Below are positions 1-58,409 of a stretch of 64,000 nucleotides of DNA, piece by piece. The position numbers and the translations under genes were made by a program. Every line of letters begins with the position of its first letter. Positions within the stretch are counted from its first letter, which is position 1. The notes under the pieces were generated by a model that was not told the origin of the DNA, made no database searches, and saw only the letters and a list, made by a program, of their open reading frames with translations. This DNA is from the human T2T-CHM13v2.0 reference genome, Homo sapiens. The DNA is taken from NCBI RefSeq assembly GCF_009914755.1, contig NC_060939.1. One strand, written 5' to 3'.

Positions 1-798
1 TGTTGATGATGGATGTGAGAGTGGTGAAGCCCTGCGGGATGATGTAGAGGACTTCCACATCCCTGGTGAGGAGCTGCCCCTTGGGTCTGAGTTTCTGGGA
101 GGGGAGAGGGAGAAGCTGGGTGAGGCAGGCATGAATCTTGAGGAGTCAGGGCTGGGGGACCGCTCATATTCTCCCGAGACCTGTGAGTCTCTGGGGGACT
201 CCTGGGTGCATGGGGCTGACTCCCGCAGGAACCTGGGGATGGCTGGAGAGTAACTGGGAGCCACAGGAGGGTCCCTGAGGCCTGGGGGTGAAGAGATGCA
301 AGACACAGGGGTGGAGCAGCGTGAGGCTCGTGAGTTTGTAGGTGATTCCTGGGTGTGGGGGGCTGACTCCAGCTGAAATCTGGGGTTGTTTGGAGAGTAG
401 CTGGGAGACACAGGAGACCCCCCGAGAGCTGGGGGTGAGCTGCTGGGTGATGGCAGTAAGAACATGTGGTATATTATTGATGAACGTGGGGACTCTGAGG
501 AGTCCTCAGAGGAGGACACGGCAGAGCCCAATGGCTTCATTGATTGCCCATCACGGTGAGGACAGGGAAATGGGAGCTTGTGGGATTCTGGTGATGACAG
601 AGGTGAGTGTGGTGAAGCCCTAGGGGATGGTGAATGGTAGTTCCGGATCCCTGGTGAGGAGCTTCCCCTTAAGCCTGAGTTTCTGAGAGGGGAGAGGGAG
701 AAGCTGGGTGAGGCTCGCATGGACCTTGGGGTGTCCGTGATGGGGGACCGTTCATAAGAAGAGCCAGACAAGACCCTACTGTTCTTAGGTGCAGACAT
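1..798 (-). CDS. 5' part (about 266 codons) of the Ser/Pro-rich CTD-like repeat ORF, copy 1; truncated by window start
   Basis: Matches 6597-7394 of the next copy; ATG is + strand cat at 796-798. Confidence 0.55.
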   Translation of the reverse strand, partial: MSAPKNSRVLSGSSYERSPITDTPRSMRASPSFSLSPLRNSGLRGSSSPGIRNYHSPSPRASPHSPLSSPESHKLPFPCPHRDGQSMKPLGSAVSSSEDSSESPRSSIIYHMFLLPSPSSSPPALGGSPVSPSYSPNNPRFQLESAPHTQESPTNSRASRCSTPVSCISSPPGLRDPPVAPSYSPAIPRFLRESAPCTQESPRDSQVSGEYERSPSPDSSRFMPASPSFSLSPPRNSDPRGSSSPGMWKSSTSSRRASPLSHPSST

Positions 799-859
799 GA
801 TTAGGAAACCTGCAGCTCCCAGGGGCCCCCACTAATGTTCTAACTCGCAGAAGGAAGGA

Positions 860-912
860 GTGTGTGTGCGTGTGTGCGTGTGCGTGTGCGTGTGTGTGTT
901 TGTGTGTGTGCG
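860..912. repeat. (TG)/(CG) alternating purine-pyrimidine microsatellite, in every unit
   Basis: gtgtgtgtgcgtgtgtgcgtgtgcg... read directly; length varies between unit types. Confidence 0.9.
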
Positions 913-960
913 GTGTGAGGTATGGGCCCCTTAAAGAAATGGAAATCAACCAACCAATGG

Positions 961-985
961 GACAGACAGACAGACAGACAGACAG
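961..985. repeat. (GACA)n microsatellite, in every unit
   Basis: About six gaca units read directly. Confidence 0.9.
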
Positions 986-1107
986 AGATTCACTTGCCCA
1001 AGTGTTCTGTCCTGTCCTCTGAATCCGCTTTCAAGTCGCAAGACGCTGTGAGCTCCAAGTCCACGCAGAGTCCGCCAAACGCTCCGGCCGCTGATCCGCT
1101 CCGCGAA

Positions 1108-1178
1108 GATCTGAGTACAGGCCAGCCAGGGTGGGTTTAAATAGCCTCGGGCGCAGCCTAGCAGCGGAAAGGGCGGAG
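1108..1178 (-). promoter_or_regulatory. Pol II core promoter: GC box (1171-1176), TATTTAAA (1143-1136), Inr TCAGATC (A+1 at 1112)
   Basis: The first T of the TATA box is 31 nt upstream of a perfect YYANWYY Inr, with GGGCGG at about -60 in a locally CpG-rich patch. TATA is retained at 7732, 14328, 20628, 26931, 33230, 39542, 45845, 52148 and 58743. Confidence 0.65.
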
Positions 1179-1719
1179 CCTCACTCCTCCTTTCCATCAG
1201 TCACCCCCAACTTTCCCAGGCTACACCTCGTAGGAAACTGTTCTCCTGCTTTGATTTCATGCGCCACCTTTGGGACAATCTAAGAACTTACAGGTTTTCT
1301 TGGCCAGATTTATTAGGAATTGTATGCACTGAAACACTGAAAACCAACTAGTGGTTCTGTGCTTCCCACGTTGTGGTTTTGACACCAGCAGCATCCTTGC
1401 CACAATCAAACCCCGGAGATCCGCAGATCTGTGTTGTAACAAGACCTCCCCCTGACCCTGAAGCATGGCAGTTGAAGAAGTCTTTCCGTGTAAGCGAAAA
1501 GACTTTGAAGAAAAGGTGGAGATATGCGTTGTATAAACATTCTTTTGCTCTGGAACCACGTAGAGACTTGGGAGCCAGTTGGGTGGAGCATTCGTTGGAT
1601 GAGGGTGCTCGGGTTAGGAATATCAAGGTGTTTCTCCAGATAATCCAATCATCTAATTAAGATTCCAGTTATGCTCATCTGTTTTAAAATTCCGTTTGGG
1701 TAAATTCTTTTAGTCAGAC

Positions 1720-2190
1720 TGAGAATGGCAAAGCCTCAACCCCAATTTCCAGGGAGGGTGGAGAGCCTCAGGTGGAGTTGATCACCAATAGCCTATGGTT
1801 TAACCCATCATGCCTATAGAATGAGGTCTCCATCAAAACCCAAAAGGACTGGGTTCAGAGAGCTTCTGGATAACACTTCCTGGAAGGTAGTGCACCCCTC
1901 CCCGCATGCCGGGCCCCACATTTATTTCTGAACTTTGTGCAATGTCCGCTAAAATACAACGGCAAATGTAAGTGTTTCCCTGCGTGCTGTGAGCTCTTCC
2001 AGCAAATGAATGCAACTAAATCTGGGAGTGGTGGCAACCTGATTTATAGCCAGTTGCTGAGAAGCACAGGTAAAACAACGTAGGGCTTCCCATTGTTGTT
2101 GGTGTGGGAGGCCTGTCTGGCGGGACTCGGCCCTTTGGAATCTAATGCTATGTCCCGGTAGATAGCGTCACCATTGAATTAGAAGACACA
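1720..2190 (+). mobile_element. MER21-like ERV LTR fragment, one per unit
   Basis: ttgatcaccaatagcc...catcatgcctatagaatgaggtctccatcaaaacccaaaaggactgggttcagagagcttc and gatagcgtcaccattgaattagaagacac resemble the MER21 consensus as recalled. Boundaries are approximate. Confidence 0.65.
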
Positions 2191-2364
2191 CATATGTGGA
2201 GAATAATCTTTCTGGTCATTTACTGCATGTCATATTTACAACATGTAATCAAATTCTTTATCCTGACCTTATGGCACCTGGGTTTAGGACCATGATTTGA
2301 ACCAAACGTTGGTCTGTCACTTTCTGAGTTTGAAACTTTATTTTGCCTTTAGCGTTTTGCTATT

Positions 2365-2665
2365 GCTTTTTCGTTTTCTTTTGTTTCGTTTCGTTTCTAA
2401 GTTCTGGGGTATATGTGCAGGATGTGCAGATTTGTTACTAAGGTAAACGTGTGCCATGGTGGTTTGCTGCACCTGTCAACCCGTCACCTAGGTATTAAGC
2501 CCAGCATGCAGTAGCTGTTTTTCTTAACGCTCTGCCTCCCGAAAGGCCCCAGTGTGTGTTGTTCCCCTTCCTGTGTCCATGGGATCTCACTTTTCAGCTC
2601 CCATTATAAGTGAGAAGGTGGCGTTTGGTTTTCTTTCCCTGGATTAGTTTGCTGACGATAATGAC
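2365..2665 (-). mobile_element. L1PA-family LINE-1 3' end with degenerate poly(A), antisense, one per unit
   Basis: A T-rich tail is followed by taagttctggggtatatgtgcaggatgtgcagatttgttac...gtgccatggtggtttgctgcacc...taggtattaagcccagcatgca, the characteristic primate L1 3' terminus in reverse. Confidence 0.85.
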
Positions 2666-2680
2666 CACACATCACCACTG

Positions 2681-3020
2681 TTTTTGTTTTTTAGTATAAA
2701 GAGTAGTATTTTATTGAATAAGATTTGCTCACAGAAAAATAAGCTTAAATCTACAATGAATGCCAGACCCTACAGCAGAAAGCAATTTTCTCACTTTTCC
2801 ACACACAATGGTTCCTACTAAGTGAAAAAAAAGCCATAAAATTTCATTCACAAATGTACTACTCTGTCTCAAAACATCTCACGTAATCATGCACTGTACT
2901 AAAGCCAACAGATCAGTTCTTCAGTCAGGTTAAAGAAGTATCCCTCTAATAACTGACTTTTATAATGCTATCAATATCCACTCCCAATCAGTCTGCCATT
3001 GTTAGTGGTGTACAGCATTA
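2681..3020 (-). other. Polyadenylated retrocopy-like fragment (3'UTR-like), one per unit
   Basis: Minus-strand AATAAA (+ tttatt 2710-2715) lies 17 nt before an A tract (+ T tract 2681-2692), with AT-rich UTR-like sequence. The parent is unknown and the 5' boundary is a guess. Confidence 0.45.
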
Positions 3021-3054
3021 CTGAATACAACGGAATTGATGACGCCCATATCCA

Positions 3055-3125
3055 CAGACAAACCGTGACTTATGATGGTTTGATTTATGATTTTTCAACG
3101 TTATGATGGGTTTATTGGAATATTA
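3055..3125. mobile_element. Short Tigger/MER47-like DNA transposon fragment
   Basis: gacttatgatggtttgatttatgatttttcaacgttatgatgggtttattgg resembles a CpG-decayed subterminal motif (gacttacgat...ttttcaacttacgatgggtttatcgg) as recalled. Confidence 0.4.
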
Positions 3126-3407
3126 GATTTGTTTCTGAGTTACACTGGGTTTATGAGTATGCGACCCTACACTCCAGAAACAGCTGTACAAGGAAAAACA
3201 GGTGTACCTAATAAAAATATGCTTAGTGACTTGGGATAAACCAATAGAAGTTCACAAGTGATGGAGAGCCGTGAAAGAGAGATAGCGGTAAATAGTTACA
3301 ATAACACAATTTTCCTGCACCTGTCGAGGATTTCCCCCAAAAAACGCAGAATGTGGGATGCACCTAAGGCATATGAAAGAGAGAGGGCAGAAGGAGTAAG
3401 AGAGAAA

Positions 3408-3525
3408 TAGGAGGAAGGAAGGAAGGAAGCAAGGAAGAAAGGAAGGTAGGAAAGAAGGAAGGTAGGACGGAAGGAAGGAAGGAAGGAAGGAAGGAAGGAA
3501 GGAAAGAAGGATGAAAGGAAGGAGA
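3408..3525 (+). repeat. (GGAA)n polypurine microsatellite, one per unit, variable in 4-bp steps
   Basis: Read directly; also at about 10005, 16600, 22890, 29190, 35500, 41800, 48105, 54410 and 61015. Confidence 0.95.
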
Positions 3526-3579
3526 AAACACCGGTGTTACTAAAACCCCCCAAAAAAATGGTTTCCCCCTGTGGGTAAG

Positions 3580-3910
3580 CCTACAATGTGGATGAATCTT
3601 GAAAATATTGTGCTACGTGTTATGTCAGTCATAGCAGCTCACCTATTGTGCAATTCCGTTTATAGGAAATGTCCACAATATGGAAATCTATGCATATGGG
3701 ATTGATCGCACTAGGTAGTTGCTACCTAGGGCTGAGGGTCAGGGAGAGGGTTTGAGACAGAATGAGGAGTGACTAATGTCTACAGGGTCTTTCTCTGGTC
3801 GGGGGTGATAAGACGTTTTACAATGGATTGCGAATTAAAATTGAATGTGCACAACCACAGGTATACTAAAAGCCACTCAATTCATGACCTTTAATGGGGG
3901 AATCTTACGT
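3580..3910 (+). mobile_element. Old L1M (L1MB/L1MD-like) 3'-region fragment, one per unit
   Basis: tggatgaatcttgaaaatattgtgcta...tattgtgcaattccgtttataggaaatgtcca...ggtagttgctacctagggctg...atactaaaagccactcaatt are typical mammalian L1M 3'UTR motifs. Confidence 0.65.
3890..3895 (-). terminator. Candidate poly(A) signal ATTAAA about 230 nt after the ORF stop
   Basis: + strand tttaat, followed on the minus strand by GT-rich sequence (gagtggcttttagtatacctgtggttgtg). Confidence 0.35.
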
Positions 3911-4121
3911 GGCGTAGTCTCATGGAGACCACGGCAGACATAGTGAGAGAGAAAAAGGTGAGTAAATATCTGAAACGGAGGCAGAAACAGAGAGAATGTA
4001 AAGCCCTGTGAATGGAAGGGAGAGCGAAAAGGGAAAATGGTCCTATTTACAAATGACAGATGTGAAACTGGGGTTCACATCAACAGTGTCACTGCCAGGA
4101 AGGAGGGTCATGCTAGCCATG

Positions 4122-7100
4122 TCACCGGTAGTGTGGCCCGCAGGGAGGCCGACCTGCTGGAGCGTCGTGCCAGCATGGGCTGTGGCAACCACGTGGGCCA
4201 GCAGGAGGTTCCCGCTGCACAGCTGTGGGGTGAGGATAGACTGGGTGGTGATATCGGCCATTACAGGGGCCTCTTCTGCTGGCAAGAGTGTGACAGTAGC
4301 AAGTAGATGGACAGGCCTGCGTGTGAGGACGGAATGCAGGAGGGGTTCTTGTGCGCCTGGGTGTGGGGCCCTCACGGGAACCGTGGAGAAATGGCCAGGT
4401 AACTGCGTCATGTGGGCTAGTAGATTGGCCAGGGCTTCGAACTGAAGGACGATAACGGGGAGTAGCTGTCAGGCCCTGGGAGTGCCTGAGTGTAAGTGGA
4501 GATGGGTTTGGGGTCACTGAGGGATGCGTGGGAGCCATCCCTGTATAGGTACAGGTCATAGGGAGATAGTCTCGTGAGGCCTGTGAGTGTCTAGGGTTGT
4601 CCTGGGTGCCTGGGGCTGACTGTGGCAGAAATCTGGGGAAGGCTGGAGAGAAGCTGGGAGACCCAGGAGAGTCCCTGAAGGCAGGGGGTGAAGAGGTGAA
4701 AGAAATGGGGGAGGGTTGCAGTAAGGTCCGTGAGTTTGTAGGTGATTCCTGGGTGCGGGAAGCTGACTCCAGATGAAATCTGGAGATGGTTGGAGAGTAG
4801 CTGAGAGAGACAGAAGAGTCCCTGAGGGCTGGGGGTGAGAACATGAGGGAGACGGGGGAGTAAGTCAGTGAAATTCGTGAGTTCGGTGGTGTATCGTGGG
4901 TGCCTGGAACTGACTCCAGCTGGAATCTAGAGAAGTTTTGAGAGTAGCTGAAGGAGACACAAGAGTCCCTGTGGGCTGAGGGCAAAGACCTGAGACAGAC
5001 CAGGGAGGACCTCAGTGAAGTCTGTGAGTCTGTAGGTGATTCCGGAGTGTGGGAGGCTGACTCCCGCTGAAATCTGGGCGTGGTGGGAGAGTAGCTGGGA
5101 CAGACAGGAGAGTCCCAGGGGGCTGGGGGTGAAGACGTGAGAGAGACTGGGGAGTAACTCAGTGAAATTGCTGAGTTGGTTGGTGATACCTGGGTGCCTG
5201 GAACTGACCCCCGCTGAAATCTGGGCATGGTTGGAGAGTAGCTGGGACACACAGGAGAGTCCCTGAGGGCTGGGGGTGAAGACATGAGCGAGACCGGGGA
5301 GTAACTGAGTGAAACTGGTGAGTTTGGTGGTGACTCCGGGGTGCCTGGAACTGACTCCAGCTGAAATGTGGGCGTGGTTGGAGAGTAGCTGGGACAGACA
5401 GGAGAGTCCCTGAGGACTGGTGAAGACATGAGAGAGACTGGAGAGTAATTGAGTGAAATTGGTGAGTTTGGTGGTGATTCCTGGGTGCCTGGAACTGACT
5501 CCCGCTGAAGTGTGGGCGTGGTTGGAGAGTAGCTGGGACACACAGGAGAGTCCCTGAGGGTTGGAGATAAAGACGTGCTAGAGACTGAGGAGTAACTGAG
5601 TGAAATTGGTGAGTTTGGTGGTGATTCCGGGGTGCCTGGAACGGACTCCAGCTGAAATGTGGGCGTGGTTGGAGAGTAGCTGGGACAGACGGGAGAGTCC
5701 CTGAGGGATGGTGAAGACATGAGAGAGACTGGGGAGTAACGCAGTGAAATTGGTGAGTTTGGTGGTGATTTCTGGGTGCCTGCAACGGACTCCCGCTGAA
5801 GTGTGGGCGTGCTTGGAGAGTAGCTGGGACAGACAGGCGAGTCCCTGAGGGTTGGAGATAAAGACGTGCTAGAGACTGAGGAGTAACTGAGTGAAATTGG
5901 TGAGTTTGGTGGTGATTCCGGGGTGCCTGGAACGGACTCCAGCTGAAATGTGGGCGTGGTTGGAGAGTAGCTGGGACAGACGGGAGAGTCCCTGAGGGAT
6001 GGTGAAGACATGAGAGAGACTGGGGAGTAACGCAGTGAAATTGGTGAGTTTGGTGGTGATTTCTGGGTGCCTGCAACGGACTCCCGCTGAAGTGTGGGCG
6101 TGCTTGGAGAGTAGCTGGGACAGACAGGCGAGTCCCTGAGGGTTGGAGATAAAGACGTGCTGGAGACTGGGGAGTAACTCAGTGAAAGTGGGGGGCTTGG
6201 TGGTGATCCCAGGGTTCCTGGAACTGACCCGCGCTGAAATGTGGGCGTGGTTGGAGAGTAGCTGGGACAGACTGGAGGGTCCGTAAGGGCTGGGGGTGAA
6301 GACGTGAGAGAGACTGGCGAGGATCTCACTGAGGTCTGTGAGTTTGTAGGTGTTTCTGGGGTGTGGGGTACAGACTCCCGCTGAAATCTGGGCGTAGTTG
6401 GAGAGTAGCTGGGACAGACAGGAGAGTCATGGGTGGCTGGGGGTGAGCTGCTGGATGATGGCAGTAAGAACATATGGTACATTATTGATGAATGAGGTGA
6501 CTGTGAAGAATCTCCAGAGGAGGACACGGGAGAACACAATGACATGAGTGACTGTCCTGCTTGGTTAGGAAAGGGAAACGTAAAGTTGTGGAATTCTGTT
6601 GATGATGGATGTGAGAGTGGTGAAGCCCTGCGGGATGATGTAGAGGACTTCCACATCCCTGGTGAGGAGCTGCCCCTTGGGTCTGAGTTTCTGGGAGGGG
6701 AGAGGGAGAAGCTGGGTGAGGCAGGCATGAATCTTGAGGAGTCAGGGCTGGGGGACCGCTCATATTCTCCCGAGACCTGTGAGTCTCTGGGGGACTCCTG
6801 GGTGCATGGGGCTGACTCCCGCAGGAACCTGGGGATGGCTGGAGAGTAACTGGGAGCCACAGGAGGGTCCCTGAGGCCTGGGGGTGAAGAGATGCAAGAC
6901 ACAGGGGTGGAGCAGCGTGAGGCTCGTGAGTTTGTAGGTGATTCCTGGGTGTGGGGGGCTGACTCCAGCTGAAATCTGGGGTTGTTTGGAGAGTAGCTGG
7001 GAGACACAGGAGACCCCCCGAGAGCTGGGGGTGAGCTGCTGGGTGATGGCAGTAAGAACATGTGGTATATTATTGATGAACGTGGGGACTCTGAGGAGTC

Positions 7101-7394
7101 CTCAGAGGAGGACACGGCAGAGCCCAATGGCTTCATTGATTGCCCATCACGGTGAGGACAGGGAAATGGGAGCTTGTGGGATTCTGGTGATGACAGAGGT
7201 GAGTGTGGTGAAGCCCTAGGGGATGGTGAATGGTAGTTCCGGATCCCTGGTGAGGAGCTTCCCCTTAAGCCTGAGTTTCTGAGAGGGGAGAGGGAGAAGC
7301 TGGGTGAGGCTCGCATGGACCTTGGGGTGTCCGTGATGGGGGACCGTTCATAAGAAGAGCCAGACAAGACCCTACTGTTCTTAGGTGCAGACAT
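4122..7394 (-). CDS. Putative Ser/Pro/Thr-rich disordered protein with Pol II CTD-like YSPTTP repeats, long form (1090 aa), copy 2
   Basis: Uninterrupted ATG-TGA ORF, A at Kozak -3, upstream TATA/Inr/GC box, 48/49-aa repeats. Translation is unproven. Confidence 0.65.
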   Translation of the reverse strand: MSAPKNSRVLSGSSYERSPITDTPRSMRASPSFSLSPLRNSGLRGSSSPGIRNYHSPSPRASPHSPLSSPESHKLPFPCPHRDGQSMKPLGSAVSSSEDSSESPRSSIIYHMFLLPSPSSSPPALGGSPVSPSYSPNNPRFQLESAPHTQESPTNSRASRCSTPVSCISSPPGLRDPPVAPSYSPAIPRFLRESAPCTQESPRDSQVSGEYERSPSPDSSRFMPASPSFSLSPPRNSDPRGSSSPGMWKSSTSSRRASPLSHPSSTEFHNFTFPFPNQAGQSLMSLCSPVSSSGDSSQSPHSSIMYHMFLLPSSSSSPPATHDSPVCPSYSPTTPRFQRESVPHTPETPTNSQTSVRSSPVSLTSSPPALTDPPVCPSYSPTTPTFQRGSVPGTLGSPPSPPLSLSYSPVSSTSLSPTLRDSPVCPSYSPSTPTLQRESVAGTQKSPPNSPISLRYSPVSLMSSPSLRDSPVCPSYSPTTPTFQLESVPGTPESPPNSPISLSYSSVSSTSLSPTLRDSPVCPSYSPSTPTLQRESVAGTQKSPPNSPISLRYSPVSLMSSPSLRDSPVCPSYSPTTPTFQLESVPGTPESPPNSPISLSYSSVSSTSLSPTLRDSPVCPSYSPTTPTLQRESVPGTQESPPNSPISLNYSPVSLMSSPVLRDSPVCPSYSPTTPTFQLESVPGTPESPPNSPVSLSYSPVSLMSSPPALRDSPVCPSYSPTMPRFQRGSVPGTQVSPTNSAISLSYSPVSLTSSPPAPWDSPVCPSYSPTTPRFQRESASHTPESPTDSQTSLRSSLVCLRSLPSAHRDSCVSFSYSQNFSRFQLESVPGTHDTPPNSRISLTYSPVSLMFSPPALRDSSVSLSYSPTISRFHLESASRTQESPTNSRTLLQPSPISFTSSPPAFRDSPGSPSFSPAFPRFLPQSAPGTQDNPRHSQASRDYLPMTCTYTGMAPTHPSVTPNPSPLTLRHSQGLTATPRYRPSVRSPGQSTSPHDAVTWPFLHGSREGPTPRRTRTPPAFRPHTQACPSTCYCHTLASRRGPCNGRYHHPVYPHPTAVQREPPAGPRGCHSPCWHDAPAGRPPCGPHYR
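4590..6450. repeat. 147/144-bp satellite block (ACRO1-like), present in every unit and extending in diverged form to about 7350
   Basis: The motif ggagagtagctgggacaga...gagtccctgaggg recurs every 144-147 bp. A 147-bp monomer is the known ACRO1 unit size. Confidence 0.85.
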
Positions 7395-7703
7395 GATTAG
7401 GAAACCTGCAGCTCCCAGGGGCCCCCACTAATGTTCTAACTCGCAGAAGGAAGGAGTGTGTGTGCGTGTGTGCGTGTGCGTGTGCGTGTGTGTGTTTGTG
7501 TGTGTGCGGTGTGAGGTATGGGCCCCTTAAAGAAATGGAAATCAACCAACCAATGGGACAGACAGACAGACAGACAGACAGAGATTCACTTGCCCAAGTG
7601 TTCTGTCCTGTCCTCTGAATCCGCTTTCAAGTCGCAAGACGCTGTGAGCTCCAAGTCCACGCAGAGTCCGCCAAACGCTCCGGCCGCTGATCCGCTCCGC
7701 GAA

Positions 7704-7774
7704 GATCTGAGTACAGGCCAGCCAGGGTGGGTTTAAATAGCCTCGGGCGCAGCCTAGCAGCGGAAAGGGCGGAG
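7704..7774 (-). promoter_or_regulatory. Core promoter of the copy 2 ORF (TATA 7739-7732, Inr A at 7708, GC box 7767-7772)
   Basis: Same motifs and spacing as at 1108-1178. Confidence 0.65.
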
Positions 7775-10717
7775 CCTCACTCCTCCTTTCCATCAGTCAC
7801 CCCCAACTTTCCCAGGCTACACCTCGTAGGAAACTGTTCTCCTGCTTTGATTTCATGCGCCACCTTTGGGACAATCTAAGAACTTACAGGTTTTCTTGGC
7901 CAGATTTATTAGGAATTGTATGCACTGAAACACTGAAAACCAACTAGTGGTTCTGTGCTTCCCACGTTGTGGTTTTGACACCAGCAGCATCCTTGCCACA
8001 ATCAAACCCCGGAGATCCGCAGATCTGTGTTGTAACAAGACCTCCCCCTGACCCTGAAGCATGGCAGTTGAAGAAGTCTTTCCGTGTAAGCGAAAAGACT
8101 TTGAAGAAAAGGTGGAGATATGCGTTGTATAAACATTCTTTTGCTCTGGAACCACGTAGAGACTTGGGAGCCAGTTGGGTGGAGCATTCGTTGGATGAGG
8201 GTGCTCGGGTTAGGAATATCAAGGTGTTTCTCCAGATAATCCAATCATCTAATTAAGATTCCAGTTATGCTCATCTGTTTTAAAATTCCGTTTGGGTAAA
8301 TTCTTTTAGTCAGACTGAGAATGGCAAAGCCTCAACCCCAATTTCCAGGGAGGGTGGAGAGCCTCAGGTGGAGTTGATCACCAATAGCCTATGGTTTAAC
8401 CCATCATGCCTATAGAATGAGGTCTCCATCAAAACCCAAAAGGACTGGGTTCAGAGAGCTTCTGGATAACACTTCCTGGAAGGTAGTGCACCCCTCCCCG
8501 CATGCCGGGCCCCACATTTATTTCTGAACTTTGTGCAATGTCCGCTAAAATACAACGGCAAATGTAAGTGTTTCCCTGCGTGCTGTGAGCTCTTCCAGCA
8601 AATGAATGCAACTAAATCTGGGAGTGGTGGCAACCTGATTTATAGCCAGTTGCTGAGAAGCACAGGTAAAACAACGTAGGGCTTCCCATTGTTGTTGGTG
8701 TGGGAGGCCTGTCTGGCGGGACTCGGCCCTTTGGAATCTAATGCTATGTCCCGGTAGATAGCGTCACCATTGAATTAGAAGACACACATATGTGGAGAAT
8801 AATCTTTCTGGTCATTTACTGCATGTCATATTTACAATATGTAATCAAATTCTTTATCCTGACCTTATGGCACCTGGGTTTAGGACCATGATTTGAACCA
8901 AACGTTGGTCTGTCACTTTCTGAGTTTGAAACTTTATTTTGCCTTTAGCGTTTTGCTATTGCTTTTTCGTTTTCTTTTGTTTCGTTTCGTTTCTAAGTTC
9001 TGGGGTATATGTGCAGGATGTGCAGATTTGTTACTAAGGTAAACGTGTGCCATGGTGGTTTGCTGCACCTGTCAACCCGTCACCTAGGTATTAAGCCCAG
9101 CATGCAGTAGCTGTTTTTCTTAACGCTCTGCCTCCCGAAAGGCCCCAGTGTGTGTTGTTCCCCTTCCTGTGTCCATGGGATCTCACTTTTCAGCTCCCAT
9201 TATAAGTGAGAAGGTGGCGTTTGGTTTTCTTTCCCTGGATTAGTTTGCTGACGATAATGACCACACATCACCACTGTTTTTGTTTTTTAGTATAAAGAGT
9301 AGTATTTTATTGAATAAGATTTGCTCACAGAAAAATAAGCTTAAATCTACAATGAATGCCAGACCCTACAGCAGAAAGCAATTTTCTCACTTTTCCACAC
9401 ACAATGGTTCCTACTAAGTGAAAAAAAAGCCATAAAATTTCATTCACAAATGTACTACTCTGTCTCAAAACATCTCACGTAATCATGCACTGTACTAAAG
9501 CCAACAGATCAGTTCTTCAGTCAGGTTAAAGAAGTATCCCTCTAATAACTGACTTTTATAATGCTATCAATATCCACTCCCAATCAGTCTGCCATTGTTA
9601 GTGGTGTACAGCATTACTGAATACAACGGAATTGATGACGCCCATATCCACAGACAAACCGTGACTTATGATGGTTTGATTTATGATTTTTCAACGTTAT
9701 GATGGGTTTATTGGAATATTAGATTCGTTTCTGAGTTACACTGGGTTTATGAGTATGCGACCCTACACTCCAGAAACAGCTGTACAAGGAAAAACAGGTG
9801 TACCTAATAAAAATATGCTTAGTGACTTGGGATAAACCAATAGAAGTTCACAAGTGATGGAGAGCCGTGAAAGAGAGATAGCGGTAAATAGTTACAATAA
9901 CACAATTTTCCTGCACCTGTCGAGGATTTCCCCCAAAAAACGCAGAATGTGGGATGCACCTAAGGCATATGAAAGAGAGAGGGCAGAAGGAGTAAGAGAG
10001 AAATAGGAGGAAGGAAGGAAGGAAGCAAGGAAGAAAGGAAGGTAGGAAAGAAGGAAGGTAGGACGGAAGGAAGGAAGGAAGGAAGGAAGGAAGGAAGGAA
10101 AGAAGGATGAAAGGAAGGAGAAAACACCGGTGTTACTAAAACCCCCCAAAAAAATGGTTTCCCCCTGTGGGTAAGCCTACAATGTGGATGAATCTTGAAA
10201 ATATTGTGCTACGTGTTATGTCAGTCATAGCAGCTCACCTATTGTGCAATTCCGTTTATAGGAAATGTCCACAATATGGAAATCTATGCATATGGGATTG
10301 ATCGCACTAGGTAGTTGCTACCTAGGGCTGAGGGTCAGGGAGAGGGTTTGAGACAGAATGAGGAGTGACTAATGTCTACAGGGTCTTTCTCTGGTCGGGG
10401 GTGATAAGACGTTTTACAATGGATTGCGAATTAAAATTGAATGTGCACAACCACAGGTATACTAAAAGCCACTCAATTCATGACCTTTAATGGGGGAATC
10501 TTACGTGGCGTAGTCTCATGGAGACCACGGCAGACATAGTGAGAGAGAAAAAGGTGAGTAAATATCTGAAACGGAGGCAGAAACAGAGAGAATGTAAAGC
10601 CCTGTGAATGGAAGGGAGAGCGAAAAGGGAAAATGGTCCTATTTACAAATGACAGATGTGAAACTGGGGTTCACATCAACAGTGTCACTGCCAGGAAGGA
10701 GGGTCATGCTAGCCATG

Positions 10718-17309: not shown

Positions 17310-20290
17310 TCACCGGTAGTGTGGCCCGCAGGGACGCCGACCTGCTGGAGCGTCGTGCCAGCATGGGCTGTGGCAACCACGTGGGCCAGCAGGAGGTTCC
17401 CGCTGCACAGCTGTGGGGTGAGGATAGACTGGGTGGTGATATCGGCCATTACAGGGGCCTCTTCTGCTGGCAAGAGTGTGACAGTAGCAAGTAGATGGAC
17501 AGGCCTGCGTGTGAGGACGGAATGCAGGAGGGGTTCTTGTGCGCCTGGGTGTGGGGCCCTCACGGGAACCGTGGAGAAATGGCCAGGTAACTGCGTCATG
17601 TGGGCTAGTAGATTGGCCAGGGCTTCGAACTGAAGGACGATAATGGGGAGTAGCTGTCAGGCCCTGGGAGTGCCTGAGTGTAAGTGGAGATGGGTTTGGG
17701 GTCACTGAGGGATGCGTGGGAGCCATCCCTGTATAGGTACAGGTCATAGGGAGATAGTCTCGTGAGGCCTGTGAGTGTCTAGGGTTGTCCTGGGTGCCTG
17801 GGGCTGACTGTGGCAGAAATCTGGGGAAGGCTGGAGAGAAGCTGGGAGACCCAGGAGAGTCCCTGAAGGCAGGGGGTGAAGAGGTGAAAGAAATGGGGGA
17901 GGGTTGCAGTAAGGTCCGTGAGTTTGTAGGTGATTCCTGGGTGCGGGAAGCTGACTCCAGGTGAAATCTGGAGATGGTTGGAGAGTAGCTGAGAGAGACA
18001 GAAGAGTCCCTGAGGGCTGGGGGTGAGAACATGAGGGAGACGGGGGAGTAAGTCAGTGAAATTCGTGAGTTCGGTGGTGTATCGTGGGTGCCTGGAACTG
18101 ACTCCAGCTGGAATCTAGAGAAGTTTTGAGAGTAGCTGAAGGAGACACAAGAGTCCCTGTGGGCTGAGGGCAAAGACCTGAGACAGACCAGGGAGGACCT
18201 CAGTGAAGTCTGTGAGTCTGTAGGTGATTCCGGAGTGTGGGAGGCTGACTCCCGCTGAAATCTGGGCGTGGTGGGAGAGTAGCTGGGACAGACAGGAGAG
18301 TCCCAGGGGGCTGGGGGTGAAGACGTGAGAGAGACTGGGGAGTAACTCAGTGAAATTGCTGAGTTGGTTGGTGATACCTGGGTGCCTGGAACTGACCCCC
18401 GCTGAAATATGGGCATGGTTGGAGAGTAGCTGGGACACACAGGAGAGTCCCTGAGGGCTGGGGGTGAAGACATGAGCGAGACCGGGGAGTAACTGAGTGA
18501 AACTGGTGAGTTTGGTGGTGACTCCGGGGTGCCTGGAACTGACTCCAGCTGAAATGTGGGCGTGGTTGGAGAGTAGCTGGGACAGACAGGAGAGTCCCTG
18601 AGGACTGGTGAAGACATGAGAGAGACTGGAGAGTAATTGAGTGAAATTGGTGAGTTTGGTGGTGATTCCTGGGTGCCTGGAACTGACTCCCGCTGAAGTG
18701 TGGGCGTGGTTGGAGAGTAGCTGGGACACACAGGAGAGTCCCTGAGGGTTGGAGATAAAGACGTGCTAGAGACTGAGGAGTAACTGAGTGAAATTGGTGA
18801 GTTTGGTGGTGATTCCGGGGTGCCTGGAACGGACTCCAGCTGAAATGTGGGCGTGGTTGGAGAGTAGCTGGGACAGACGGGAGAGTCCCTGAGGGATGGT
18901 GAAGACATGAGAGAGACTGGGGAGTAACGCAGTGAAATTGGTGAGTTTGGTGGTGATTTCTGGGTGCCTGCAACGGACTCCCGCTGAAGTGTGGGCGTGC
19001 TTGGCGAGTAGCTGGGACAGACAGACGAGTCCCTGAGGGTTGGAGATAAAGACGTGCTGGAGACTGGGGAGTAACTCAGTGAAAGTGGTGGGCTTGGTGG
19101 TGATCCCAGGGTTCCTGGAACTGACCCGCGCTGAAATGTGGGCGTGGTTGGAGAGTAGCTGGGACAGACTGGAGGGTCCGTAAGGGCTGGGGGTGAAGAC
19201 GTGAGAGAGACTGGCGGGGATCTCACTGAGGTCTGTGAGTTTGTAGGTGTTTCTGGGGTGTGGGGTACAGACTCCCGCTGAAATCTGGGCGTAGTTGGAG
19301 AGTAGCTGGGACAGACAGGAGAGTCATGGGTGGCTGGGGGTGAGCTGCTGGATGATGGCAGTAAGAACATATGGTACATTATTGATGAATGAGGTGACTG
19401 TGAAGAATCTCCAGAGGAGGACACGGGAGAACACAATGACATGAGTGACTGTCCTGCTTGGTTAGGAAAGGGAAACGTAAAGTTGTGGAATTCTGTTGAT
19501 GATGGATGTGAGAGTGGTGAAGCCCTGCGGGATGATGTAGAGGACTTCCACATCCCTGGTGAGGAGCTGCCCCTTGGGTCTGAGTTTCTGGGAGGGGAGA
19601 GGGAGAAGCTGGGTGAGGCAGGCATGAATCTTGAGGAGTCAGGGCTGGGGGACCGCTCATATTCTCCCGAGACCTGTGAGTCTCTGGGGGACTCCTGGGT
19701 GCATGGGGCTGGCTCCCGCAGGAACCTGGGGATGGCTGGAGAGTAACTGGGAGCCACAGGAGGGTCCCTGAGGCCTGGGGGTGAAGAGATGCAAGACACA
19801 GGGGTGGAGCAGCGTGAGGCTCGTGAGTTTGTAGGTGATTCCTGGGTGTGGGGGGCTGACTCCAGCTGAAATCTGGGGTTGTTTGGAGAGTAGCTGGGAG
19901 ACACAGGAGACCCCCCGAGAGCTGGGGGTGAGCTGCTGGGTGATGGCAGTAAGAACATCTGGTATATTATTGATGAACGTGGGGACTCTGAGGAGTCCTC
20001 AGAGGAGGACACGGCAGAGCCCAATGGCTTCATTGATTGCCCATCACGGTGAGGACAGGGAAATGGGAGCTTGTGGGATTCTGGTGATGACAGAGGTGAG
20101 TGTGGTGAAGCCCTAGGGGATGGTGAATGGTAGTTCCGGATCCCTGGTGAGGAGCTTCCCCTTAAGCCTGAGTTTCTGAGAGGGGAGAGGGAGAAGCTGG
20201 GTGAGGCTCGCATGGACCTTGGGTGTCCGTGCTGGGGGACCGTTCATAAGAAGAGCCAGACAAGACCCTACTGTTCTTAGGTGCAGACAT
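17310..20290 (-). pseudogene. CTD-like repeat gene copy 4, short form, with a 1-bp deletion near codon 24; 967-aa ORF remains from the ATG at 20213
   Basis: ccttGGGtgtcc at about 20217-20228 versus ccttGGGGtgtcc in copies 1-3 puts the ATG at 20290 out of frame. Confidence 0.6.
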
Positions 20291-55135: not shown

Positions 55136-58100
55136 TCACCGGTAGTGTGGCCCGCAGGGACGCCGACCTGCTGGAGCGTCGTGCCAGCATGGGCTGTGGC
55201 AACCACGTGGGCCAGCAGGAGGTTCCCGCTGCACAGCTGTGGGGTGAGGATAGACTGGGTGGTGATATCGGCCATTACAGGGGCCTCTTCTGCTGGCAAG
55301 AGTGTGACAGTAGCAAGTAGATGGACAGGCCTGCGTGTGAGGACGGAATGCAGGAGGGGTTCTTGTGCGTCTGGGTGTGGGGCCCTCACGGGAACCGTGG
55401 AGAAATGGCCAGGTAACTGCGTCATGTGGGCTAGTAGATTGGCCAGGGCTTCGAACTGAAGGACGATAATGGGGAGTAGCTGTCAGGCCCTGGGAGTGCC
55501 TGAGTGTAAGTGGAGATGGGTTTGGGGTCACTGAGGGATGCGTGGGAGCCATCCCTGTATAGGTACAGGTCATAGGGAGATAGTCTCGTGAGGCCTGTGA
55601 GTGTCTAGGGTTGTCCTGGGTGCCTGGGGCTGACTGTGGCAGAAATCTGGGGAAGGCTGGAGAGAAGCTGGGAGACCCAGGAGAGTCCCTGAAGGCAGGG
55701 GGTGAAGAGGTGAAAGAAATGGGGGAGGGTTGCAGTAAGGTCCGTGAGTTTGTAGGTGATTCCTGGGTGCGGGAAGCTGACTCCAGGTGAAATCTGGAGA
55801 TGGTTGGAGAGTAGCTGAGAGAGACAGAAGAGTCCCTGAGGGCTGGGGGTGAGAACATGAGGGAGACGGGGGAGTAAGTCAGTGAAATTCGTGAGTTCGG
55901 TGGTGTATCGTGGGTGCCTGGAACTGACTCCAGCTGGAATCTAGAGAAGTTTTGAGAGTAGCTGAAGGAGACACAAGAGTCCCTGTGGGCTGAGGGCAAA
56001 GACCTGAGACAGACCAGGGAGGACCTCAGTGAAGTCTGTGAGTCTGTAGGTGATTCCGGAGTGTGGGAGGCTGACTCCCGCTGAAATCTGGGCGTGGTGG
56101 GAGAGTAGCTGGGACAGACAGGAGAGTCCCAGGGGGCTGGGGGTGAAGACGTGAGAGAGACTGGGGAGTAACTCAGTGAAATTGCTGAGTTGGTTGGTGA
56201 TACCTGGGTGCCTGGAACTGACCCCCGCTGAAATCTGGGCATGGTTGGAGAGTAGCTGGGACACACAGGAGAGTCCCTGAGGGCTGGGGGTGAAGACATG
56301 AGCGAGACCGGGGAGTAACTGAGTGAAACTGGTGAGTTTGGTGGTGACTCCGGGGTGCCTGGAACTGACTCCAGCTGAAATGTGGGCGTGGTTGGAGAGT
56401 AGCTGGGACAGACAGGAGAGTCCCTGAGGACTGGTGAAGACATGAGAGAGACTGGAGAATAATTGAGTGAAATTGGTGAGTTTGGTGGTGATTCCTGGGT
56501 GCCTGGAACTGACTCCCGCTGAAGTGTGGGCGTGGTTGGAGAGTAGCTGGGACACACAGGAGAGTCCCTGAGGGTTGGAGATAAAGACGTGCTAGAGACT
56601 GAGGAGTAACTGAGTGAAATTGGTGAGTTTGGTGGTGATTCCGGGGTGCCTGGAACGGACTCCAGCTGAAATGTGGGCGTGGTTGGAGAGTAGCTGGGAC
56701 AGACGGGAGAGTCCCTGAGGGATGGTGAAGACATGAGAGAGACTGGGGAGTAACGCAGTGAAATTGGTGAGTTTGGTGGTGATTTCTGGGTGCCTGCAAC
56801 GGACTCCCGCTGAAGTGTGGGCGTGCTTGGAGAGTAGCTGGGACACACAGGAGAGTCCCTGAGGGTTGGAGATAAAGACGTGCTAGAGACTGAGGAGTAA
56901 CTGAGTGAAATTGGTGAGTTTGGTGGTGATTCCGGGGTGCCTGGCACGGACTCCAGCTGAAATGTGGGCGTGGTTGGAGAGTAGCTGGGACAGACGGGAG
57001 AGTCCCTGAGGGATGGTGAAGACATGAGAGAGACTGGGGAGTAACGCAGTGAAATTGGTGAGTTTGGTGGTGATTTCTGGGTGCCTGCAACGGACTCCCG
57101 CTGAAGTGTGGGCGTGCTTGGAGAGTAGCTGGGACAGACAGGCGAGTCCCTGAGGGTTGGAGATAAAGACGTGCTGGAGACTGGGGAGTAACTCAGTGAA
57201 AGTGGTGGGCTTGGTGGTGATCCCAGGGTTCCTGGAACTGACCCGCGCTGAAATGTGGGCGTGGTTGGAGAGTAGCTGGGAGAGACTGGAGGGTCCGTAA
57301 GGGCTGGGGGTGAAGACGTGACAGAGACTGGCGGGGATCTCACTGAGGTCTGTGAGTTTGTAGGTGTTTCTGGGGTGTGGGGTACAGACTCCCGCTGAAA
57401 TCTGGGCGTAGTTGGAGAGTAGCTGGGACAGACAGGAGAGTCATGGGTGGCTGGGGGTGAGCTGCTGGATGATGGCAGTAAGAACATATGGTACATTATT
57501 GATGAATGAGGTGACTGTGAAGAATCTCCAGAGGAGGACACGGGAGAACACAATGACATGAGTGACTGTCCTGCTTGGTTAGGAAAGGGAAACGTAAAGT
57601 TGTGGAATTCTGTTGATGATGGATGTGAGAGTGGTGAAGCCCTGCGGGATGATGTAGAGGACTTCCACATCCCTGGTGAGGAGCTGCCCCTTGGGTCTGA
57701 GTTTCTGGGAGGGGAGAGGGAGAAGCTGGGTGAGGCAGGCATGAATCTTGAGGAGTCAGGGCTGGGGGACCGCTCATATTCTCCCGAGACCTGTGAGTCT
57801 CTGGGGGACTCCTGGGTGCATGGGGCTGGCTCCCGCAGGAACCTGGGGATGGCTGGAGAGTAACTGGGAGCCACAGGAGGGTCCCTGAGGCCTGGGGGTG
57901 AAGAGATGCAAGACACAGTGGTGGAGCAGCGTGAGGCTCGTGAGTTTGTAGGTGATTCCTGGGTGTGGGGGGGCTGACTCCAGCTGAAATCTGGGGTTGT
58001 TTGGAGAGTAGCTGGGAGACACAGGAGACCCCCCGAGAGCTGGGGGTGAGCTGCTGGGTGATGGCAGTAAGAACATGTGGTATATTATTGATGAACGTGG

Positions 58101-58409
58101 GGACTCTGAGGAGTCCTCAGAGGAGGACACGGCAGAGCCCAATGGCTTCATTGATTGCCCATCACGGTGAGGACAGGGAAATGGGAGCTTGTGGGATTCT
58201 GGTGATGACAGAGGTGAGTGTGGTGAAGCCCTAGGGGATGGTGAATGGTAGTTCCGGATCCCTGGTGAGGAGCTTCCCCTTAAGCCTGAGTTTCTGAGAG
58301 GGGAGAGGGAGAAGCTGGGTGAGGCTCGCATGGACCTTGGGGTGTCCGTGCTGGGGGACCGTTCATAAGAAGAGCCAGACAAGACCCTACTGTTCTTAGG
58401 TGCAGACAT
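55136..58409 (-). pseudogene. CTD-like repeat gene copy 10, long form, +1 frameshift giving a truncated 211-aa product
   Basis: G7 at 57967-57973 versus G6 in other copies; the ORF is split into 57774..58409 and 55136..57916, and the latter has a non-ATG start. Confidence 0.65.

What the first reader, a model, noticed from the sequence alone, without database searches (positions are those of the whole stretch)
799..1178. Textbook TATA(-31)+Inr+GC-box promoter and an ATG-free leader pointing into the ORF in all ten copies
Seen: the minus strand reads GC box, TATTTAAA, then TCAGATC with canonical spacing in a CpG-retaining patch. No ATG occurs between the predicted TSS (1112) and the ORF start (798), which has A at -3. 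This arrangement is independent of the ORF and is not expected for inert satellite, so it is the best sequence-only support for a real gene.
Basis: partly seen in the sequence, partly recalled or inferred. Interest (0 to 1): 0.72.

Follow-up and report, generated by a model that had tools for sequence, protein, structure and literature searches.

The report
Hidden embryo gene inside ACRO satellite
Each unit of the ACRO "satellite" on human acrocentric short arms carries a promoter-shaped sequence and usually a 1,000-codon reading frame with relatives in marmoset and rabbit, so this supposed junk is likely an old mammalian gene in about 200 copies, predicted to be switched on by DUX4 in the early embryo.

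Summary
Observation confirmed. GC box, TATTTAAA (-31), initiator (A at 1112) and an ATG-free leader sit in all 10 copies, but the copies are about 99% identical and 2 of 9 complete ORFs are frameshifted. The window is the ACRO composite array (147-bp ACRO1 in a 6.3-6.6 kb unit). [quoted passage not shown] Papers report that ACRO1 RNA is DUX4-induced and peaks at the 4-cell stage. Against: pN/pS near 1 among human paralogs, no TSS or peptide data, and the RNA stalls Pol II in HeLa. The ORF has been noted in passing and by automatic annotation; I found no account of the gene anatomy or the non-primate origin. Real promoter about 0.8; functional protein about 0.6.

The parts
1641..1651 (+). DUX4 consensus site (CC flavour), about 530 bp upstream of the predicted TSS
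   Evidence: 10 of 10 copies. Matches TAAT[T/C][T/C]AATCA, all four flavours bound and active in PMC4730607. Consensus kept in 16 of 18 paralogs, 5 as the TC flavour. Absent from the chr8 relic.
1170..1179 (+). GC box (Sp1-type, reads AGGGCGGAGC on +), -67 to -58
   Evidence: unchanged in 16 of 18 paralogs
1136..1143 (-). TATA-like box TATTTAAA, first T at -31
   Evidence: unchanged in 17 of 18 paralogs; 180 exact copies of the 18-mer around it in the genome; decayed in the chr8 relic
1108..1114 (-). Initiator TCAGATC; predicted TSS A at 1112
   Evidence: 18 of 18 paralogs and the chr8 relic; TSS itself not measured
998..1112 (-). Predicted non-coding exon 1 (115 nt), CpG-rich
   Evidence: inferred
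810..997 (-). Predicted leader intron (188 nt): donor G|GCAAGT at 997, acceptor CAG|G at 810, alternative acceptor TAG at 840; holds (GACA)n 961-986 and (GT)n 860-910
   Evidence: Donor is G|GTAAGT in 4 of 18 paralogs and in the chr8 relic. Donor block 49/54 and acceptor-ATG block 36/38 identical to chr8 against 290/381 in the flank. Microsatellites. Splicing not shown.
1..798 (-). Start of the ORF of the first copy (266 codons, cut by the window edge)
4122..7394 (-). Complete ORF of the next copy, 1090 aa: duplicated N-domain, 48/49-aa repeats, Cys/His C-terminal region. Its promoter is TATA 7739, Inr 7708.
4600..6446 (.). ACRO1 147-bp array (12.6 units), in frame inside the ORF
3890..3895 (-). 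Candidate poly(A) signal ATTAAA 227 nt after the stop, followed by a GT-rich tract
   Evidence: present in 7 of 7 paralogs where the anchor was found (8 tried); ATTTAA in the chr8 relic; use not shown
20164..20290 (-). Frameshifted copy (1-bp deletion, stop after 42 aa) with an intact promoter
57774..58409 (-). Frameshifted copy (1-bp insertion, stop after 211 aa) with an intact promoter

Best explanation
The motif cluster is likely the RNA polymerase II promoter of a two-exon protein-coding gene that forms the core of each ACRO unit, predicted to be switched on briefly by DUX4 in cleavage-stage embryos. Shown: the promoter, splice, DUX4 and poly(A) motifs, the long ORF, and homologous proteins in marmoset, rabbit and an unnamed one-repeat relative. 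From papers: ACRO1 is hypomethylated in the male germ line, its RNA peaks at the 4-cell stage and is raised by DUX4. Inferred: DUX4 binds at -530; Sp1/TFIID start at 1112; a leader intron is removed; ribosomes scan the ATG-free leader to 798; the transcript ends after ATTAAA. The product would be a disordered Ser/Pro/Thr-rich protein with about 100 S/T-P sites and a conserved Cys/His tail. In the human lineage its repeats gained many YSPT motifs, so it would most likely act as a transient phospho-substrate or decoy for Pol II CTD kinases and readers during genome activation (speculative, about 0.25 for that exact role). Tandem amplification on the short arms would supply dose for a short expression window.
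For: Motifs and shuffles. Core-promoter footprint among 18 paralogs, p=0.005 against the near flank. GT donor in older paralogs; donor and acceptor blocks kept in a 70%-identical chr8 relic, Fisher p=0.014 and 0.007. Marmoset protein 66% identical over the first 593 aa from the same start. Rabbit protein: C-terminal match beats 3000 of 3000 shuffles and scores E=4e-6 with a profile built without it; 49-residue period z=5.5; 8 of its 10 hits to the human repeat profile exceed the best of 500 shuffles. P0016, with no human match above 49%, has MSAP start, one repeat and the same C-terminal end, and its 50 upstream residues align with the human leader (0 of 10,000 shuffles, 50). DUX4 site kept in 16 of 18 paralogs through a consensus-compatible change. 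ORF open to the C-terminal motif in 9 of 18 sampled loci across chr2, 3, 4, 13, 14, 21, 22; about 11 stops expected among the intact ones under neutrality (67; biased, they were picked as intact). Expression and methylation passages.
Against: No amino-acid constraint among human paralogs: pN/pS 0.82-2.31 in 17 window-versus-paralog pairs; 0.79 among window copies, 0.74 among internal repeats, 0.59 between the duplicated N-domains. 2 of 9 window ORFs and 9 of 18 sampled loci are broken. One chr14 distal copy has lost GC box, TATA and donor yet keeps a 993-aa ORF, and two distal copies lost the DUX4 site. In the chr8 relic the core promoter is no better kept than the flank (80/110 against 290/381). 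The GC donor has a weak exon side and the 810 acceptor a poor pyrimidine tract. The marmoset record has a stretch that looks out of frame and ends earlier. Boots 2020 found no stable ACRO1 RNA in HeLa and that ACRO1 inserts block elongation. The passages read give no strand or TSS for embryo RNA (11, 89). RefSeq shows no gene here (hub note). YSPT is absent in rabbit and single in P0016. No confident fold for the tail (pTM 0.12).
Confidence: 0.62

Rival explanations
1. Relic gene: the unit descends from a real mammalian gene and the promoter still fires under DUX4, but the human protein no longer matters. ORFs stay open because arrays are young and homogenised.
For: pN/pS near 1; half of the sampled loci broken; frameshifts inside the array; promoter decay in a chr14 copy with an open ORF (62, 63); copy losses between generations in a pedigree.
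Against: Several separately diverged lineages (chr21 distal at 188/2982 differences, chr4, chr2q, chr14/22 distal) are all open where about 11 stops were expected; core-promoter footprint; DUX4 site changed within its consensus; arrays on all rDNA-bearing ape short arms.
Confidence: 0.25
2. The promoter is real but the product that matters is the RNA or the act of transcription (nucleolar or heterochromatin organisation, Pol II-binding aptamers); the ORF is a leftover.
For: ACRO1 RNA binds Pol II and stalls it in cis; ACRO sits distal to rDNA on ape acrocentrics; promoter constrained while amino acids are not.
Against: Frame, start, stop and the Cys/His motif are kept out to rabbit and P0016; repeat units are multiples of three (147/144/291 bp); the leader is ATG-free.
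Confidence: 0.1
3. Chance motifs in inert satellite, or a transposon-derived promoter unrelated to the ORF.
For: TATA plus Inr alone arises in half of shuffles; the unit holds LINE and LTR pieces; copies are not independent.
Against: Triple motif 3 of 500 shuffles; leader and start homologous in the chr8 relic and P0016; only 180 and 226 genome matches to promoter words, the listed ones clustered at ACRO-type loci.
Confidence: 0.03

Closest known systems
ACRO composite / ACRO1 satellite (Boots 2020 PMC7714431; Hoyt bioRxiv 2021.07.12.451456; acrocentric preprint 2025.12.22.696095)
   Same: This is it: 147-bp ACRO1 array in a roughly 6-kb unit, tandem on acrocentric short arms. CTD-like translation already noted; 'putative protein coding gene' mentioned in PMC12746033.
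   Different: Those texts treat it as a primate-specific satellite, possibly from CTD mRNA. Here it has promoter, intron and poly(A) anatomy, a DUX4 site, and homologs outside primates; the CTD-like words are a late gain.
Macrosatellite-encoded and tandem DUX4-target genes (DUX4 in D4Z4; eight composites with coding annotation in Hoyt; USP17L, TAF11L, FAM90A, PRR20 recalled, not from a call)
   Same: One short gene per kb-sized tandem unit, concerted evolution, mix of intact and broken copies, early-embryo expression.
   Different: About 200 copies over five short arms and chr3/4; a second, inner tandem repeat that is coding; no Pfam family (0 hits for 7 proteins); unannotated in this RefSeq release.
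RNA polymerase II RPB1 C-terminal domain (the automatic name given to the marmoset and rabbit records)
   Same: Tyr-Ser-Pro-Thr words, 50% Ser/Thr/Pro, predicted disorder.
   Different: No YSPTSPS heptad, 49-residue period, no polymerase domain; the rabbit homolog has no YSP. The name is a mis-annotation.
'Putative extensin-like' 993-aa cluster, ESM Atlas (70 members, Chordata)
   Same: Same length as the main human ORF; probably the same protein (inferred, score under the tool's bar).
   Different: Automatic name only; no signal peptide or hydrophobic N-terminus in the human ORF.

Membership tests
TATA/Inr/GC-box Pol II core promoter | TATAWAWR-like box with first T near -31 (consensus recalled) | tested here: met
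   7 of 8 positions, 31 nt from the Inr A
TATA/Inr/GC-box Pol II core promoter | YYANWYY initiator and upstream GC box (recalled) | tested here: met
   TCAGATC; GGGCGG on + at -67 to -58
TATA/Inr/GC-box Pol II core promoter | Measured initiation at the Inr | not testable with these tools
   no CAGE, RACE or reporter data at hand
CpG island | 200 bp, GC over 50%, o/e over 0.6 (recalled) | tested here: met
   1001-1200: GC 0.60, o/e 0.84
CpG island | Stricter 500-bp definition (recalled) | tested here: not met
   flanking 200-bp bins o/e 0.45 and 0.29
ACRO composite | 147-bp array inside a roughly 6-kb tandem unit on an acrocentric short arm | tested here: met
   description
ACRO composite | L1PA10, MER21B and L1MB8 pieces | not testable with these tools
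   no repeat library; an L1-like 3' end near 2340-2640 is by recall only
Direct DUX4 target | TAAT[T/C][T/C]AATCA near the promoter | tested here: met
Direct DUX4 target | DUX4 occupancy and induction from this TSS | not testable with these tools
   family-level induction only, through secondary citations of Hendrickson 2017; the primary paper was not held
U2-type leader intron | GT/GC donor with RAGT and a YAG acceptor, conserved | tested here: met
U2-type leader intron | Clear branch point and pyrimidine tract; spliced reads | tested here: inconclusive
   pyrimidine fraction 0.45 before 810 and 0.75 before 840; no convincing branch point by eye; no RNA data
Protein-coding gene | ORF with homologous start, stop and motifs across species | tested here: met
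Protein-coding gene | dN/dS clearly below 1 | tested here: inconclusive
   about 1 among human paralogs, many of them dead copies (64); 0.59-0.79 in internal comparisons (57); no ortholog DNA available
Protein-coding gene | Translation (ribosome footprints, peptides) | not testable with these tools
   none
RPB1 CTD | Tandem YSPTSPS heptads | tested here: not met
   0 exact heptads; 7 YSPTTP at 48/49-aa spacing
RPB1 CTD | Descent from POLR2A (CTD words ancestral) | tested here: not met
   YSP[T/S] count: rabbit 0, P0016 1, marmoset 2, human 9-11

The most novel reading that the evidence does not exclude
ACRO is an unannotated, roughly 200-copy, DUX4-driven protein-coding gene family of genome activation, among the highest-copy human genes. 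It descends from a small mammalian gene whose single 49-codon segment was amplified into the ACRO1 'satellite' and drifted into a Pol II CTD mimic that titrates CTD kinases or readers in cleavage embryos and in FSHD muscle.
Probability: 0.3. Interest if true: 0.92.

Novelty: new member of a known kind. Interest (0 to 1): 0.73.

Why it matters
The acrocentric short arms are described as holding mostly non-coding or pseudogene annotation, and ACRO is called their most universally enriched satellite with no known role. If each unit is a gene, a named satellite becomes a high-copy embryonic gene family whose copy number changes between generations. That makes its 4-cell expression, germ-line hypomethylation and FSHD derepression directly testable with one TSS, one splice junction and shared tryptic peptides. 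It also replaces the published idea that ACRO1 is primate-only and derived from CTD mRNA with an origin inside an older mammalian ORF.

Tried and rejected
Pfam: 0 families for 7 proteins. PDB sequences: 0 hits for the C-terminal profile. Rfam gathering scan of 1-8000: 0. AlphaFold2 of the C-terminal 149 aa with 7 sequences: pLDDT 53, pTM 0.12, so no fold search was run and a zinc site in the Cys/His motif stays a guess. Atlas feature search of the marmoset tail: no usable hit; the human ORF and P0016 could not be looked up there. dN/dS tests gave no clear purifying signal. P0020, P0022, P0024 and P0027 of the 20 profile hits (45) were set aside as multi-stretch, likely low-complexity matches (only P0020 was read). 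The 122-aa ORF at 4043-4411 was treated as an overlapping frame of the 3' end, no Pfam hit. The post hoc window 1260-1105 was replaced by a fixed TSS-100..+10 window for the footprint test. Of 20 loci fetched, L015 and L016 had no promoter match in the stretch held and L028 was left out of the tree alignment for its shorter upstream match. POLR2A origin rejected. Hendrickson 2017 was not held, so DUX4 induction rests on secondary citations. Supplementary Fig. 11 of PMC12746033 (PDF, too large to read) may name the putative gene; its two readable supplements had no hit. Boots 2020 SI Fig. S3 and Hoyt Fig. S10 were not seen and may show the unit's layout.

Full report
OBSERVATION. On the minus strand the window reads GC box 1179-1170, TATTTAAA 1143-1136, TCAGATC with A at 1112, then 314 nt without ATG to ATCATGT at 798. 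All 10 copies show this, with 31 nt from the first T to the Inr A. The 200 bp at 1001-1200 hold 15 CpG (o/e 0.84), a narrow patch. With recalled consensus patterns, TATA-like plus Inr appears in 51% of 500 dinucleotide shuffles of the 3.3-kb non-ORF part, the triple with a GC box in 3 of 500, and in 0 of 2000 shuffles of the 500 bp above the ATG; an ATG-free leader occurs in 2.5% of 5000 shuffles. The ten copies are one observation (about 99% identical). Of 9 whole ORFs, 7 are open (993 or 1090 aa) and 2 carry 1-bp frameshifts.

WHAT THE REPEAT IS. Units of 6.3-6.6 kb with an inner 147-bp array on chr15p match the ACRO composite as described in Boots 2020 (PMC7714431; parts 1-3 of 5 read), Hoyt (bioRxiv, passages) and the ape acrocentric preprint (passages of two versions). 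The ACRO1 array lies in frame inside the ORF as 48/49-aa repeats. Exact promoter words occur 180 times (TATA 18-mer) and 226 times (GC-box 26-mer, up to 3 mismatches) in the genome; reversed controls 0 (only the first 100 places were listed).

MISSED PARTS OF THE GENE. (a) A DUX4 site, TAATCCAATCA, at 1641-1651 in 10 of 10 copies; a looser pattern arose in 14 of 500 shuffles. It is one of four flavours that bind and activate in PMC4730607 (abstract and passages). Among 18 aligned paralogs (window plus 17 of 20 fetched loci) 11 have this flavour, 5 older ones the TC flavour, and 2 distal-array copies have lost it. (b) A leader intron. The window has G|GCAAGT at 997; 4 of 18 paralogs have G|GTAAGT, 13 the GC form, 1 neither. 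A search for the GT form found a further locus at chr8 48.46 Mb, a frameshifted paralog of about 70% identity that keeps the Inr, the donor block (49/54) and the CAG|G acceptor-ATG block (36/38) better than the flank (290/381), while TATA and GC box have decayed, the core promoter is no better kept than the flank (80/110), and the DUX4 segment has no counterpart (the blocks were chosen after seeing the alignment). The acceptor is 810 by conservation or 840 by pyrimidine content; either product is ATG-free. (c) ATTAAA 227 nt after the stop, followed by a GT-rich tract, in 7 of 7 paralogs where the anchor was found. (d) Footprint: non-CpG parsimony changes are 11 in 86 sites at TSS-100..+10 against 109 in 392 in the near flank (p=0.005). 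TATA is intact in 17 of 18, Inr in 18 of 18, GC box in 16 of 18.

THE ORF IS OLD. A protein search gave 5 hits at E below 1e-20 among 7979 scored candidates, including records named for marmoset and rabbit. The marmoset protein is 66% identical over 593 aa from the same start but has a stretch that looks out of frame. The rabbit protein shares the C-terminal motif around CPSxCYCH and CNGxxHHP; the match beats 3000 shuffles and a rabbit-free profile gives E=4e-6. It has its own 49-residue period, and 8 of 10 hits of the human repeat profile exceed the best of 500 shuffles. A profile search of 1.84 billion proteins gave 20 hits. One, unnamed P0016, has the N-domain once, one repeat, the tail and the same end, has no human match above 49%, and its 50 residues before MSAP align with the translated human leader (0 of 10,000 shuffles), with V-S over the donor and L-G-A-A over the acceptor (the DNA behind these residues is inferred). 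So the leader, start, repeat and tail predate the arrays. YSP[T/S] counts are 0 in rabbit, 1 in P0016, 2 in marmoset and 9-11 in human, and no YSPTSPS occurs: the CTD likeness is a late gain, against the published suggestion of descent from CTD mRNA and the statement that no non-primate homologue exists.

EXPRESSION IN PRINT (family level, passages only). ACRO1 RNA peaks at the 4-cell stage (PMC6545021; no strand given in the passages). ACRO1 is hypomethylated in spermatogonial stem cells and sperm and rises in the early embryo (PMC5832720). DUX4 raises ACRO1 RNA (PMC8990217; PMC11467316; both cite Hendrickson 2017, not seen). ACRO1 is among the most hypomethylated repeats in FSHD-mutant cells (PMC12776069). 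[quoted passage not shown] PMC10616205 and PMC13639854 had no relevant passage for the terms tried.

AGAINST. pN/pS is 0.82-2.31 in 17 pairs of window against paralog and 0.59-0.79 in three internal comparisons. 9 of 18 sampled loci are broken, mostly dispersed ones. Among the window ORF and 9 intact loci, 371 changes would give about 11 stops under neutrality, but these were chosen as intact. One chr14 copy has lost GC box, TATA and donor with its ORF open. ACRO1 inserts stall Pol II and no stable RNA was seen in HeLa. No domain, solved relative or confident model exists.

VERDICT. Descent from a real mammalian gene about 0.93; active DUX4-responsive promoter about 0.8; functional protein about 0.6; CTD-decoy role about 0.25. 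It works like a macrosatellite-encoded early-embryo gene and is not an RPB1 fragment. Ten full-text searches showed no paper describing the promoter, intron, DUX4 site or non-primate homologs; only listings were seen for most hits, subscription papers are missing, and unseen supplements may bear on this. The ORF itself is already in automatic annotation and noted in passing. New member of a known kind; interest 0.73.

Noticed in passing
L031 (G000:C8:48455500-48465400, minus strand): Old, frameshifted paralog of about 70% identity with promoter, intron, several repeats and 3' end; candidate for the ancestral or earliest duplicated locus. It has about 2 kb extra upstream and lacks the roughly 95-bp segment (window 1608-1702) that carries the DUX4 site, so that site may have been gained by the amplified lineage.
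   Followed up: partly
L013 (G000:C2:161735500-161742500): Dispersed chr2q copy with an intact 358-aa ORF and complete promoter; short architecture like P0016 and P0028. The easiest copy to map uniquely.
   Followed up: partly
L012, L014, L032 (chr19 47.23-47.28 Mb): Four promoter copies, three with the GT donor; the two ORFs translated stop early (82 and 687 aa). Most diverged clade together with the chr2 132.7 Mb and chr20 copies.
   Followed up: partly
L025 (chr14 distal array): GC box, TATA and donor all changed while the 993-aa ORF is open; many chr14 distal units lack the exact TATA 18-mer. A natural promoter-mutant control.
   Followed up: no
L019, L026 (chr15 and chr21 distal arrays): DUX4 site broken; L026 keeps a 1233-aa ORF. 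These arrays should not respond to DUX4 if the site matters.
   Followed up: no
window 4122-7394 versus 23608-26589: Copies differ by one 291-bp (97-codon) block; the window holds two sub-families of units (6.6 and 6.3 kb) that differ at 30-47 non-ORF sites.
   Followed up: partly
window 4043-4411 (-): 122-aa ORF overlapping the end of the long ORF in another frame, repeated in most units; no Pfam hit; probably incidental.
   Followed up: partly
P0002: Only 5 lysines in 993 aa against many arginines, no hydrophobic N-terminus; fits a disordered intracellular protein rather than a mucin or extensin.
   Followed up: no
P0019, P0023, P0025, P0026: Unnamed distant relatives of the C-terminal region, several looking frameshifted, which suggests the family decays often in other genomes too.
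   Followed up: no
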